Shown here piece by piece: positions 56,827 through 58,529 of a stretch of DNA of 64,000 nt (position 1 is its first letter; every line of letters begins with the position of its first letter). Both the position numbers and the translations under genes were made by a program. Origin of the DNA: Escherichia coli (GTDB lineage: Bacteria > Pseudomonadota > Gammaproteobacteria > Enterobacterales > Enterobacteriaceae); NCBI RefSeq assembly GCF_046105845.1, contig NZ_CP151004.1; one strand, given 5' to 3'. The notes under the pieces are model-generated. The model was not told the DNA's origin. It did not search any database and saw nothing but the letters and a program-made list of their open reading frames with translations.

Positions 56827-57531
56827 TTATTTTTTAGAGTAATCACGCGCACCAAAAATTGCAGTGCCGATACGAACCATCGTGCTACCTGCCGCAATGG
56901 CGGCTTCCATATCGTCCGACATTCCCAGAGAGAGCGTGTCGATATGCGGGTAGCGCGTTTTCAGTCCGGCAAATGCTACAGCCATTTGGCGTGCAACTTC
57001 AAACTGCCTTACATATTCTGACTCAGGTGCAGGGATTGCCATCAGCCCGCGCAGACGTAAACGCGGTAGTTCAGCGACCGCAGCTGCCAGCTCGTCCAGT
57101 TCTGCCAGTTGAATCCCGGACTTACTGTTTTCATCACTAATATTAATTTGAATCAGTACGTTAAGAGGGGGAAGTTCTGCCGGGCGCTGATCGTTGAGGC
57201 GGGTAGCAATGCGCAAACGGTCGATGGTATGACACCAGTCGAAATGCTCTGCCACCAGGCGGCTTTTATTAGACTGCAACGGGCCAATAAAATGCCATTC
57301 TAATCCTGTTACGCCCAGTTCCTGAAAGTGGCGAATTTTATCTACCCCTTCCTGAACGTAGTTTTCACCAAATTGACGCTGCCCGGCATCAATGGCTTCT
57401 GCGATGGCGCTCGCAGGTTTTGTTTTACTGACTGCAAGCAGCGTAATTTCTTCTGGAGAACGGCCGCAACGCGTTGCAGCCGCTGAGATTTTGTCCCGGA
57501 CCTGTGCCAGGTTATGCGCAATATCGTTCAT
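56827..57531 (-). CDS. yggS: PLP homeostasis protein (YggS/PLPBP family)
   Basis: 234 aa; alanine-racemase-N-like fold protein with SKTKP lysine motif. Confidence 0.93.
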   Translation of the reverse strand: MNDIAHNLAQVRDKISAAATRCGRSPEEITLLAVSKTKPASAIAEAIDAGQRQFGENYVQEGVDKIRHFQELGVTGLEWHFIGPLQSNKSRLVAEHFDWCHTIDRLRIATRLNDQRPAELPPLNVLIQINISDENSKSGIQLAELDELAAAVAELPRLRLRGLMAIPAPESEYVRQFEVARQMAVAFAGLKTRYPHIDTLSLGMSDDMEAAIAAGSTMVRIGTAIFGARDYSKK

Positions 57532-57548
57532 TTTCCGAGGATCTTAGT

Positions 57549-58529
57549 ATGAATATGGAAGAAATTGTGGCCCTTAGTGTAAAGCATAACGTCTCGGATC
57601 TACACCTGTGCAGCGCCTGGCCCGCACGATGGCGTATTCGCGGGCGAATGGAAGCTGCGCCGTTTGATGCGCCGGACATCGAAGAGCTACTGCGGGAGTG
57701 GCTGGATGACGATCAGCGGGCAATATTGCTGGAGAATGGTCAGCTGGATTTTGCTGTGTCGCTGGCGGAAAACCAGCGGTTGCGTGGCAGTGCGTTCGCG
57801 CAACGGCAAGGTATTTCTCTGGCATTACGGTTGTTACCTTCGCACTGTCCACAGCTCGAACAGCTTGGTGCGCCACCGGTATTGCCGGAATTACTCAAGA
57901 GCGAGAATGGCCTGATTCTGGTGACGGGAGCGACGGGGAGCGGCAAATCTACCACGCTGGCGGCGATGGTTGGCTATCTCAATCAACATGCCGATGCGCA
58001 TATTCTGACGCTGGAAGATCCTGTTGAATATCTCTATGCCAGCCAGCGATGTTTGATCCAGCAGCGGGAAATTGGTTTGCACTGTATGACGTTCGCATCG
58101 GGATTGCGGGCCGCATTGCGGGAAGATCCCGATGTGATTTTGCTCGGAGAGCTGCGTGACAGCGAGACAATCCGTCTGGCGCTGACGGCAGCAGAAACCG
58201 GACACCTGGTGCTGGCAACTTTACATACGCGTGGTGCGGCGCAGGCAGTTGAGCGACTGGTGGATTCATTTCCAGCGCAGGAAAAAGATCCCGTGCGTAA
58301 TCAACTGGCGGGGAGTTTACGGGCAGTGTTGTCACAAAAGCTGGAAGTGGATAAACAGGAAGGACGCGTGGCGCTGTTTGAATTGCTGGTTAACACACCC
58401 GCGGTGGCGAATTTGATTCGCGAAGGGAAAACCCACCAGTTACCGCATGTTATTCAAACCGGGCAACAGGTGGGGATGTTAACTTTTCAGCAGAGTTATC
58501 AGCAGCGGGTGGGGGAAGGACGTTTGTGA
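57549..58529 (+). CDS. yggR: PilT-like ATPase (type IV pilus retraction family) YggR
   Basis: MNMEEIVALSVKHNVSDLHL...; Walker A GATGSGKST; 326 aa. Confidence 0.9.
   Translation: MNMEEIVALSVKHNVSDLHLCSAWPARWRIRGRMEAAPFDAPDIEELLREWLDDDQRAILLENGQLDFAVSLAENQRLRGSAFAQRQGISLALRLLPSHCPQLEQLGAPPVLPELLKSENGLILVTGATGSGKSTTLAAMVGYLNQHADAHILTLEDPVEYLYASQRCLIQQREIGLHCMTFASGLRAALREDPDVILLGELRDSETIRLALTAAETGHLVLATLHTRGAAQAVERLVDSFPAQEKDPVRNQLAGSLRAVLSQKLEVDKQEGRVALFELLVNTPAVANLIREGKTHQLPHVIQTGQQVGMLTFQQSYQQRVGEGRL

What the first reader, a model, noticed from the sequence alone, without database searches (positions are those of the whole stretch)
57531..57549. Back-to-back start codons of yggS and the PilT-like ATPase yggR
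Start codons of the divergent genes are only ~17 bp apart, so promoters must overlap coding sequence. yggR encodes a twitching-motility-type ATPase with an intact Walker A box in an organism with no obvious pilus partner in this window, possibly servicing a cryptic type IV pilus or competence system.
Basis: partly seen in the sequence, partly recalled or inferred. Interest (0 to 1): 0.3.

Follow-up and report, generated by a model that had tools for sequence, protein, structure and literature searches.

The report
Head-to-head yggS and yggR starts
Two well-known E. coli genes, a vitamin-B6 homeostasis gene (yggS) and a silent pilus-retraction motor gene (yggR), start 17 bases apart and point away from each other, so each gene's control region lies inside the other gene. 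This layout is real and conserved but already annotated, and the only new lead is a possible competence-type switch for yggR hidden inside yggS.

Summary
The yggS ATG (minus strand, 57531) and the yggR ATG (plus strand, 57549) are separated by exactly 17 bp. E. coli K-12 has the same layout (b2951/b2950), as do more than 5,400 complete E. coli genomes. The pair is also head-to-head, 14-17 bp apart, in the Citrobacter, Salmonella, Klebsiella, Cedecea, Leclercia and Enterobacter loci examined.

YggR is a full-length PilT-family ATPase with all nucleotide-binding motifs, and it is under strong purifying selection (dN/dS 0.03-0.12).

Published dRNA-seq from Shigella flexneri places four yggS transcription starts 5-34 nt upstream of its ATG. 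Two of these lie inside yggR, so the yggS promoter sits within the first yggR codons. That study, done in mid-exponential TSB culture, mapped no start upstream of yggR.

A 227-bp block (57382-57608) is at least 99% identical in all E. coli genomes and has 3- to 18-fold lower synonymous divergence across genera. It contains a perfect TGCGA-N6-TCGCA palindrome, 141.5 bp upstream of the yggR ATG. In sequence, flanks and position it resembles the validated Sxy/CRP-dependent sites of ppdD and sxy. That link is a lead, not a demonstration.

The pilus partner genes lie elsewhere on the chromosome. The window itself holds a type II secretion cluster with the prepilin peptidase PppA. Overall this is ordinary and already annotated.

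The parts
56827..57531 (-). yggS coding sequence (PLP homeostasis protein, 234 aa; ATG at 57531)
   Evidence: ORF list. Pfam PF01168 at 8.4e-24. NCBIfam TIGR00044 at 347.5 bits against a cut-off of 106. RefSeq annotation.
57532..57548 (.). 17-bp spacer between the two start codons (TTTCCGAGGATCTTAGT)
   Evidence: Sequence. The same gap is annotated in RefSeq. The gap is 14-17 bp in the enterobacterial loci that could be read.
57537..57541 (+). GAGGA Shine-Dalgarno-like sequence for yggR, 7 nt before the ATG. Its complement (CCUC) sits in the yggS leader, which therefore has no good SD of its own.
   Evidence: Read directly from the sequence. GAGGA is conserved in most loci. Its function is inferred.
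57549..58529 (+). yggR coding sequence (PilT-family ATPase, 326 aa plus stop)
   Evidence: TIGR01420 at 469 bits against a cut-off of 319. Residues 1-324 align with residues 1-327 of P. aeruginosa PilT 3JVU, E 3.7e-83. dN/dS is 0.03-0.12.
57536..57565 (-). Cluster of yggS transcription starts: primary at 57536 (5-nt leader), secondary at 57546, 57561 and 57565. The last two lie inside yggR codons 5-6.
   Evidence: S. flexneri M90T dRNA-seq, Table S2 of PMC7132871, positions 138342/138352/138367/138371. These were mapped by the offset 80806; the 100-nt upstream strings match the window except for one base. Caveat: that data set has a modal leader of 5 nt.
57382..57608 (.). Constrained block covering yggS codons 1-50, the spacer and yggR codons 1-20
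   Evidence: Pairwise synonymous difference is 0.08-0.23 in the block against 0.33-0.52 in the rest of yggS, and 0.09-0.12 against about 0.45 for yggR. dS is 0.26/0.41 against 1.29 for yggS, and 0.11 against 2.02 for yggR. The block is at least 99% identical in all 5,426 E. coli records, whereas control segments are not.
57400..57415 (.). Perfect palindrome TGCGATGGCGCTCGCA (CRP-S-type core), lying in yggS codons 39-44 with its centre 141.5 bp upstream of the yggR ATG
   Evidence: It is the only perfect match in the 64-kb window. Codons 39-43 are invariant at synonymous sites in 25-28 of 28 sequences. It resembles the validated ppdD and sxy sites in sequence, flanks and position. Function is not shown.
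57420..57449 (+). Candidate weak yggR core promoter: TTGTTT (57420-57425), 18 nt, then TAATTT (57444-57449). It includes the invariant CTGCAAG at 57432-57438.
   Evidence: Inference only. A TAAWWW hexamer lies at the same offset (28-34 nt after the core) in ppdD and sxy, and CTGCAA lies at the same offset in ppdD. The consensus scan found no strong sigma-70 site.
57673..57673 (+). Sense-strand transcription start inside yggR (+125)
   Evidence: M90T position 138479. There is no usable in-frame ATG before codon 140, so it does not redefine the gene start.
57927..58424 (+). YggR catalytic motifs: Walker A 57927-57953, Asp box 58005-58031, Walker B 58125-58160, His box 58197-58229, AIRNLIRE-like AVANLIRE 58401-58424
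   Evidence: Motif positions. Alignment to PilT.

Best explanation
This is the annotated, conserved head-to-head junction of yggS and yggR. yggS is the first gene of the yggS-yggT-yggU-rdgB-hemW cluster. yggR is the E. coli PilT orthologue, the presumed retraction ATPase of the scattered PpdD/Hof type IV pilus and DNA-uptake machinery.

Only 17 bp separate the two ATGs, so the two control regions are interleaved with coding sequence.

Shown: yggS is transcribed in ordinary growth from starts 5-34 nt upstream of its ATG. RNA polymerase at the yggS promoter therefore sits on the yggR ribosome-binding site, start codon and first 20 or so codons.

Shown: in the one TSS map available (Shigella flexneri, mid-exponential TSB culture), yggR has no mapped start upstream of its ATG. 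Across genera it is kept intact by purifying selection.

Inferred: the yggR promoter lies within yggS codons 20-50. This is the only part of yggS beyond the usual first 20 codons where synonymous change is suppressed.

Inferred, with about 40% confidence: this promoter is a weak sigma-70 promoter activated through the TGCGA-N6-TCGCA site at 57400-57415 by cAMP-CRP, with or without Sxy. That is how ppdD and sxy themselves are activated. yggR would then switch on with the rest of the pilus/competence regulon.

Inferred: if so, the yggR mRNA would carry a 5' leader of roughly 90 nt antisense to the yggS start region. The two transcription units would run through each other's promoters, which allows mutual interference.

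The overall confidence of 0.7 applies to the shown steps plus an embedded yggR promoter. The CRP-S step alone is about 0.4.
For: - Geometry and annotation.
- Conservation of the junction in enterobacterial loci and in 5,425 E. coli genomes.
- yggS transcription starts, and the absence of an upstream yggR start, in S. flexneri M90T.
- PilT family membership and motifs.
- Purifying selection on yggR.
- Synonymous constraint through yggS codon 50. Six control genes recover by codon 21-30, with Mann-Whitney p = 3e-8 for yggS codons 1-50. dS is three times lower in codons 21-50.
- Within-species conservation of the block against its flanks.
- The palindrome is unique in the window. Two four-fold degenerate sites inside the proximal half-site are invariant.
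- The yggR site is centred 141.5 bp before the ATG. The corresponding distance is 136.5 bp for both the ppdD site (the only CRP-S-like 16-mer in the published band-shift fragment) and the sxy site. The flanks TCGCA-RRTTTTGT and a TAAWWW hexamer 28-34 nt downstream are shared.
- The CRP-S motif correctly predicted Sxy dependence of sbmC.
- Natural experiment: in C. youngae and C. portucalensis a 293-bp duplication spanning -166 to +127 relative to the yggR ATG flanks an inserted gene and leaves both genes intact. Each gene keeps only about 145-166 bp of upstream sequence.
- Partner pilus genes exist elsewhere in K-12.
Against: - No transcript start upstream of yggR has been seen, and the yggR promoter is not mapped.
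- The consensus scan finds no promoter-like site.
- The left half-site is TTCGA in 15 of 28 sequences, because of an Ala/Glu change. The palindrome is absent in the 51%-identical relative L036.
- The six bases between the two half-sites are also conserved. CRP sites do not normally conserve these bases, so another constraint may act here, such as the protein segment around the PLP-binding Lys36 or mRNA structure.
- E. coli CRP-S sites are normally asymmetric. A symmetric version of the sxy site was active without Sxy.
- In V. cholerae, pilT is not under TfoX or CytR control.
- Reduced synonymous change in the first 10-20 codons is common. It is also seen in yqgE and gshB, so the yggR codon 1-20 signal alone does not prove an embedded promoter.
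- The Shigella TSS data set has unusually short leaders.
- The paper listing the E. coli Sxy regulon (Sinha et al. 2009) could not be read.
Confidence: 0.7

Rival explanations
1. The low synonymous divergence in yggS codons 21-50 has nothing to do with yggR. It would instead reflect constraints on yggS itself, such as codon choice around the invariant PLP-binding segment LLAVSKTKP or mRNA structure. yggR would then be driven from somewhere else, or only by read-through. On this view the palindrome is a coincidence of the codons Pro-Ala-Ser-Ala-Ile-Ala.
For: The amino-acid sequence here is highly conserved (amino-acid difference 0.00 in codons 31-40). The bases between the half-sites are conserved too. 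The palindrome forms a hairpin in the yggS mRNA with z = -3.1. The motif decays in distant relatives that keep the short gap.
Against: The rates were computed only on codon pairs with identical amino acids. Other fully conserved stretches of yggS (codons 81-100, 121-140, 211-230) show normal synonymous rates of 0.33-0.49. No control gene shows suppression past codon 20-30. The site matches validated CRP-S promoters in flank and position.
Confidence: 0.25
2. yggR is a decaying relic with no function in these bacteria. The conserved junction would serve only yggS.
For: No upstream transcription start was mapped in Shigella. yggR has a premature stop in Leclercia (codon 104) and in one C. amalonaticus genome (codon 44). 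Shortened variants occur in Shigella and some E. coli. The body of the gene is unusually diverse within E. coli, at 90-95% identity in 1,778 genomes.
Against: dN/dS is 0.03-0.12 between genera even though dS is saturated. The gene is full length at 326 aa in 28 of 31 sequences. All ATPase motifs are intact.
Confidence: 0.1
3. yggR is expressed by long antisense transcripts that begin far upstream on the plus strand and run antisense through yggT and yggS. One candidate is the start mapped inside yggU at window position 56165. The hairpin plus T-run at 57398-57427 would act as an attenuator or terminator that normally keeps these transcripts out of yggR.
For: The scan flags a terminator-like site at 57398-57417 followed by TTTTGTTTTA. 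A plus-strand 'novel transcript' start lies at M90T 136971. Double-stranded RNA fragments were captured in the yggS body (window about 56895-57289) but not nearer yggR.
Against: The hairpin is weak (-8.9 kcal/mol) and no better than shuffled sequence on the plus strand (z = -0.5). The stem carries a mismatch in most Citrobacter sequences. The T-run is forced by the Lys-Thr-Lys codons.
Confidence: 0.08
4. The annotated yggR start is wrong. On this view the real product starts far downstream.
For: The only plus-strand start mapped near yggR in Shigella is at +125 (window 57673).
Against: The next in-frame ATG is codon 140, beyond the Walker A box. The GTG/TTG candidates lack an SD. Residues 1-42 align with the PilT N-terminal domain from residue 1. 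Codons 1-20 have dN 0.011.
Confidence: 0.03
5. YggR serves the type II secretion system encoded in the same window, not a type IV pilus.
For: An intact gspC-M cluster, pppA and sslE lie 18-30 kb away in the window.
Against: No tool result links the two. As general knowledge, type II secretion systems are not known to use PilT-type retraction ATPases. The yggS-pilT pairing exists in bacteria irrespective of this cluster.
Confidence: 0.02

Closest known systems
PilT retraction ATPase of type IVa pili (P. aeruginosa PilT, PDB 3JVU/3JVV)
   Same: The alignment is end to end (1-324 against 1-327, E 3.7e-83). Walker A, Asp box, Walker B and His box are all present. The divergent neighbour is yggS (followed by proC and yggT in some relatives), as seen in distant relatives.
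   Different: YggR is 326 aa, against 356 residues for the 3JVU chain. The AIRNLIRE motif reads AVANLIRE. [quoted passage not shown] The intergenic gap is 17 bp, against 168 bp in L037/L038 and 477 bp in L043. No retraction phenotype has been reported in the papers I could search.
Sxy/CRP-dependent CRP-S promoters of E. coli (ppdD, sxy, hofM, sbmC)
   Same: The site has a TGCGA-type half-site with C at position 6. Its centre lies 141.5 bp before the ATG, against 136.5 bp for ppdD and sxy. The proximal flank TCGCA-RRTTTTGT and a TAAWWW hexamer 28-34 nt downstream are shared. The gene belongs to the pilus machinery that this regulon controls.
   Different: The site lies inside a coding sequence. 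It is perfectly symmetric in Escherichia, whereas E. coli CRP-S sites are usually asymmetric. No binding or expression data exist for it. V. cholerae pilT is outside the TfoX regulon.
Overlapping divergent transcription units ('excludon'-type head-to-head pairs with antisense 5' ends)
   Same: The genes are divergent, and their promoters lie within each other's transcribed region. Two yggS starts lie inside yggR.
   Different: Overlap from the yggR side is only inferred. No double-stranded RNA was captured at the junction. No regulatory consequence has been shown.

Membership tests
PilT/PilU family type IVa pilus ATPase (TIGR01420) | Whole-protein score above the curated family cut-off | tested here: met
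   469.4 bits against a cut-off of 319.1, covering profile positions 1-328 of 343.
PilT/PilU family type IVa pilus ATPase (TIGR01420) | Walker A, Asp box, Walker B and His box motifs of secretion-superfamily ATPases | tested here: met
   GATGSGKST, LTLEDPVEY, DPDVILLGELRD and TGHLVLATLHT align with the PilT motifs.
PilT/PilU family type IVa pilus ATPase (TIGR01420) | PilT-specific AIRNLIRE motif near the C-terminus | tested here: inconclusive
   The motif reads AVANLIRE at residues 285-292, with Ile to Val and Arg to Ala at the second and third positions. The effect of these changes is unknown.
PilT/PilU family type IVa pilus ATPase (TIGR01420) | Drives pilus retraction in vivo | not testable with these tools
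   No experiment on YggR was found in 36 papers that mention yggR or in the PpdD/PilT literature search.
YggS/PLPHP family (TIGR00044) | Whole-protein score above the cut-off, and a conserved PLP-binding lysine in the AVSKTKP segment | tested here: met
   347.5 bits against a cut-off of 106.25. Lys36 is invariant in 28 of 28 sequences.
CRP-S (Sxy-dependent CRP) promoter | CRP-type 16-bp core with C6/G17 (TGCGA half-site) | tested here: met
   TGCGATGGCGCTCGCA at 57400-57415 has 0 mismatches and is the only such site in the window.
CRP-S (Sxy-dependent CRP) promoter | Asymmetric half-sites, as described for E. coli CRP-S sites | tested here: not met
   The site is symmetric in this window and in all Escherichia sequences. 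It is asymmetric (TTCGA...TCGCA) in 15 of 28 sequences from other genera. A symmetric sxy site was Sxy-independent, although the symmetric sbmC site needed Sxy.
CRP-S (Sxy-dependent CRP) promoter | Site upstream of a mapped transcription start at class-I-like distance | not testable with these tools
   No yggR start has been mapped. Only the distance to the ATG could be compared: 141.5 bp, against 136.5 bp for ppdD and sxy.
CRP-S (Sxy-dependent CRP) promoter | Induction requires Sxy, CRP and cAMP | not testable with these tools
   The microarray paper that lists the regulon (Sinha 2009) is not held.
Overlapping divergent transcription units | Each gene's transcript starts inside the other gene or its leader | tested here: inconclusive
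   This is met for yggS, with starts at 57561 and 57565 inside yggR. It is not shown for yggR.

The most novel reading that the evidence does not exclude
The E. coli pilus-retraction gene yggR is driven by a CRP (CRP-S-type) site and core promoter written into the synonymous positions of yggS codons 25-45. This would make the retraction motor a member of the competence regulon. Its induction would send an antisense leader across the yggS start, coupling pilus retraction to expression of the PLP-homeostasis operon by promoter and RNA interference. The 293-bp junction duplication in some Citrobacter would then be a natural uncoupling of the two genes.
Probability: 0.25. Interest if true: 0.4.

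Novelty: already known. Interest (0 to 1): 0.2.

Why it matters
As it stands, the finding matters little. The gene pair, the 17-bp gap and the PilT assignment are standard annotation in the best-studied bacterium, and short divergent gaps with embedded promoters are a familiar consequence of compact genomes.

There are two modest points of value. First, the junction is a clean example of regulatory information carried at synonymous sites of two genes at once. It is measurable both between genera and within 5,400 E. coli genomes.

Second, if the CRP-S-like site is functional, it would explain how the retraction ATPase is co-ordinated with the otherwise scattered, Sxy-induced pilus and DNA-uptake genes of E. 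coli. That would give a simple handle (yggR induction) for studies of the cryptic competence system.

Tried and rejected
- The consensus promoter scan of 56700-58700 found no sigma-70-like site on either strand.
- E. coli transcription-start tables were sought in the supplements of four papers: PMC4161252, PMC6131387, PMC4681348 and PMC4782308. None was held as text or listed the locus. Only the Shigella M90T table was usable.
- Sinha et al. 2009, the Sxy regulon paper, could not be opened by PubMed or PMC id. The competence papers I could read do not mention yggR or pilT.
- The word-indexed protein search returned only close enterobacterial relatives. Distant relatives came from the representative search.
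- A canonical CRP site (TGTGA-N6-TCACA) is absent near the junction.
- The idea that the first 20 yggR codons are unusually constrained because of the yggS promoter had to be softened. yqgE and gshB show equal suppression at their 5' ends.
- RNA folding of the putative yggR leader and of the yggS 5' end showed no structure beyond shuffled controls.
- The idea that the downstream start at +125 redefines yggR was rejected.
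Full report
**Identity of the window.** The 1.8 kb around the finding matches 5,413 complete E. coli genomes at 96-99% identity. It carries the gene order hemW-rdgB-yggU-yggT-yggS, then yggR in the opposite direction, then ruvX-yqgE-gshB-rsmE-endA. From 39093 onwards the window is collinear with the E. coli core chromosome.

**The observation.** The sequence reads CAT (57529-57531), then TTTCCGAGGATCTTAGT (57532-57548), then ATG (57549-57551). yggS is the minus-strand ORF 56827-57531 (234 aa). yggR runs from 57549 to 58529 (326 aa). RefSeq uses the same starts in the closest genome and in K-12 MG1655, where yggR b2950 is at 3094100-3095080 and yggS b2951 at 3095098-3095802, again 17 bp apart.

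Both starts are well supported. YggR aligns from its first residue with residue 1 of P. aeruginosa PilT. Only the first of its two early Met codons is conserved in Klebsiella, Cedecea and two more distant relatives. The YggS N-terminus is conserved in distant relatives.

**The two proteins.** YggS scores 347 bits on TIGR00044, the YggS family of PLP proteins (cut-off 106). YggR scores 469 bits on TIGR01420, the PilT/PilU family (cut-off 319). YggR has the Walker A box (GATGSGKST), Asp box, Walker B box and His box. Its version of the PilT AIRNLIRE motif reads AVANLIRE.

Between genera, dN/dS for yggR is 0.03-0.12 although dS is saturated. The gene is therefore maintained by selection. Some lineages have lost it: there are premature stops in Leclercia and in one C. 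amalonaticus genome, and shortened forms in Shigella and some E. coli.

**Conservation of the arrangement.** A scan of one genome per species returned 30 loci from Escherichia, Citrobacter, Salmonella, Klebsiella, Cedecea, Leclercia and Enterobacter. Where the upstream region could be read, yggS and yggR are head-to-head with a 17-bp gap, or 16 bp in the Klebsiella MAG and 14 bp in Cedecea.

Representatives of more distant PilT clusters show that the pairing is old but the tight spacing is not:
- A 62%-identical PilT has yggS 15 bp away.
- A 51%-identical PilT has yggS 14 bp away.
- A 46%-identical PilT has yggS-proC-yggT 168 bp away.
- A 48%-identical PilT has them 477 bp away.
- Three others sit in unrelated contexts.

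The enterobacterial junction is thus a compacted version of an ancestral divergent pair.

**Where transcription starts.** The only usable experimental map was the dRNA-seq table of Shigella flexneri M90T (PMC7132871, Table S2). Its sequence here is identical to the window apart from one base about 98 nt upstream of the primary start. Converted to window coordinates (M90T minus 80806), yggS has:
- a primary start at 57536, giving a 5-nt leader;
- secondary starts at 57546, 57561 and 57565.

The last two lie inside yggR codons 5 and 6. All the corresponding -10 and -35 elements must therefore lie over the yggR start codon and its first 20 or so codons.

On the plus strand there is no start between 56165 and 57673. 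The start at 57673 is 125 nt inside yggR. It cannot give a functional protein, because the next in-frame ATG is codon 140, after the Walker A box.

Two caveats apply. The cultures were in mid-exponential phase in TSB, conditions under which pilus genes are not expected to be on. That data set also has unusually short leaders, with a mode of 5 nt, so exact positions should be treated with care. Four E. coli data sets were sought without success.

**Sequence constraint.** I aligned the codons of about 28-30 distinct sequences and counted synonymous differences only where the amino acid is the same.
- In yggS the rate is 0.08-0.23 in codons 1-50 and 0.33-0.52 in most of the rest of the gene.
- In yggR it is 0.09-0.12 in codons 1-20 and about 0.45 elsewhere.
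- In six neighbouring genes, suppression in the first 10-20 codons is common (yqgE, gshB, rdgB, yggT). All of them recover by codons 21-30; only yggS stays low to codon 50.
- By the Nei-Gojobori method, dS is 0.41 in yggS codons 21-50 against 1.29 downstream. It is 0.11 in yggR codons 1-20 against 2.02 downstream.
- Within E. coli, the 227-bp block 57382-57608 is at least 99% identical in all 5,426 records. An equal-length piece of the yggR body reaches 99% in only 1,026 records, and a piece of the yggS body in 2,899.

The yggR 5' signal is compatible with the mapped yggS promoter but is not specific to it. The extended yggS signal, 78-167 nt upstream of the yggR ATG, is the distinctive one, and it lies where a yggR promoter would be expected.

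**A natural experiment.** In C. youngae and C. portucalensis a 293-bp segment is present twice as a direct repeat. It runs from -166 to +127 relative to the yggR ATG (window 57383-57675). The two copies flank a 962- or 1,157-nt insert that encodes a DUF3828 protein, and both yggS and yggR remain intact. The duplicated unit coincides almost exactly with the constrained block, which suggests that it contains what each gene needs upstream.

**The candidate switch.** Inside the constrained part of yggS lies TGCGATGGCGCTCGCA (57400-57415). This is a perfect copy of the CRP-S core TGCGA-N6-TCGCA and the only perfect copy in the 64-kb window. In yggS it spells the codons Pro-Ala-Ser-Ala-Ile-Ala, and codons 39-43 are invariant at synonymous positions in 25-28 of 28 sequences.

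I compared it with E. coli promoters shown experimentally to need CRP and Sxy:
- The published ppdD band-shift fragment contains a single CRP-S-like 16-mer, TTCGTAACGCCTCGCA, centred 136.5 bp before the ATG.
- The sxy site, CGGAAAGAGCCTCGCA, matches the half-sites described in PMC6728893. It is also centred 136.5 bp before the ATG.
- The yggR site is centred 141.5 bp before its ATG.

All three continue as TCGCA-RRTTT(T/C)-TGT and have a TAAWWW hexamer 28-34 nt after the core. ppdD and yggR also share CTGCAA at the same offset, and CTGCAAG is invariant in every upstream sequence aligned.

**Arguments against the switch.**
- The distal half-site is TTCGA in most Citrobacter and in Klebsiella, and the motif is gone in the 51% relative.
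- The conserved bases between the half-sites are not expected for CRP.
- E. coli CRP-S sites are usually asymmetric. A symmetric version of the sxy site worked without Sxy, although the symmetric sbmC site needed Sxy.
- V. cholerae pilT is not under TfoX control.
- The one paper that would settle whether yggR is Sxy-induced could not be read.

I put this step at about 40%.

**Partners.** The window does contain a related machine. sslE (22465-27033), the prepilin peptidase gene pppA (27181-27990), gspS2 and gspC-M (28484-38945) all appear as uninterrupted ORFs, next to tRNA-Phe (39093-39168). The type IV pilus genes proper lie elsewhere in K-12: ppdD-hofB-hofC, ppdAB-ygdB-ppdC and hofMNOPQ. Sxy induces ppdD 90-fold and hofM 16-fold. 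A recent preprint names yggR as the E. coli PilT orthologue and notes that no PilU is predicted. No experimental work on YggR function was found.

**Verdict.** It is now supported by mapped yggS starts and by synonymous-site constraint. The functional guess (a cryptic pilus or competence motor) is the accepted annotation. The statement about missing partners needs correction. Nothing here departs from known biology, so the finding is ordinary. The only new lead is the CRP-S-like promoter architecture hidden in yggS, which is cheap to test.

Noticed in passing
window 56948-57021 (inside yggS codons 171-190, minus strand): There is a second island of low synonymous change in yggS (0.09-0.25 against about 0.41, p = 1e-6). 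It lies just upstream of a primary transcription start mapped in Shigella at window 56948, 139 nt before the yggT ATG. This is probably an internal promoter for yggT-yggU-rdgB-hemW embedded in the 3' part of yggS.
   Followed up: partly
L019 1580-3127 and L025 1385-3127 (Citrobacter youngae, C. portucalensis): A 293-bp direct duplication of the yggS/yggR junction flanks a 962- or 1,157-nt AT-rich insert. The insert encodes a secreted DUF3828 protein. A repeat of this length is far longer than a usual transposon target duplication, and both flanking genes stay intact.
   Followed up: partly
window 22465-39168: The window holds the type II secretion beta locus (sslE, pppA, gspS2, gspC-M), all as uninterrupted ORFs. 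It lies directly next to tRNA-Phe, with the glc operon upstream.
   Followed up: partly
window 57700-57926 (yggR body): This segment is unusually diverse within E. coli for a core gene. 1,778 records are only 90-95% identical to the window here, whereas the adjacent junction is at least 99% identical everywhere. This hints at divergent yggR alleles or recombination.
   Followed up: no
window 57673 (plus strand): A sense-strand transcription start lies inside yggR at +125 in Shigella. It is two bases from the right-hand end (57675) of the segment duplicated in Citrobacter. Its role is unknown.
   Followed up: no
window about 56895-57289 (yggS body): Published p19 capture data list RNase III-cut double-stranded RNAs at four positions in the K-12 yggS body. 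This shows antisense transcription across yggS. None is listed in the first 240 nt of yggS or in yggR.
   Followed up: no
L028 (Leclercia adecarboxylata) and L031 (C. amalonaticus AUH_CA_2023_1), yggR at 3001 onwards: yggR is interrupted in these two loci, with stops at codons 104 and 44, while yggS and the junction are intact. Shortened YggR forms also occur in Shigella flexneri, S. boydii and some E. coli.
   Followed up: no
yggR region, E. coli plasmids: Three or four matches to the yggR/yggS segment lie on plasmids. A paper retrieved for 'yggR' (five mentions, one in the abstract) reports ISEcp1-mediated transposition of chromosomal blaCMY-2. I did not open it and did not check whether it explains the plasmid copies.
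   Followed up: no
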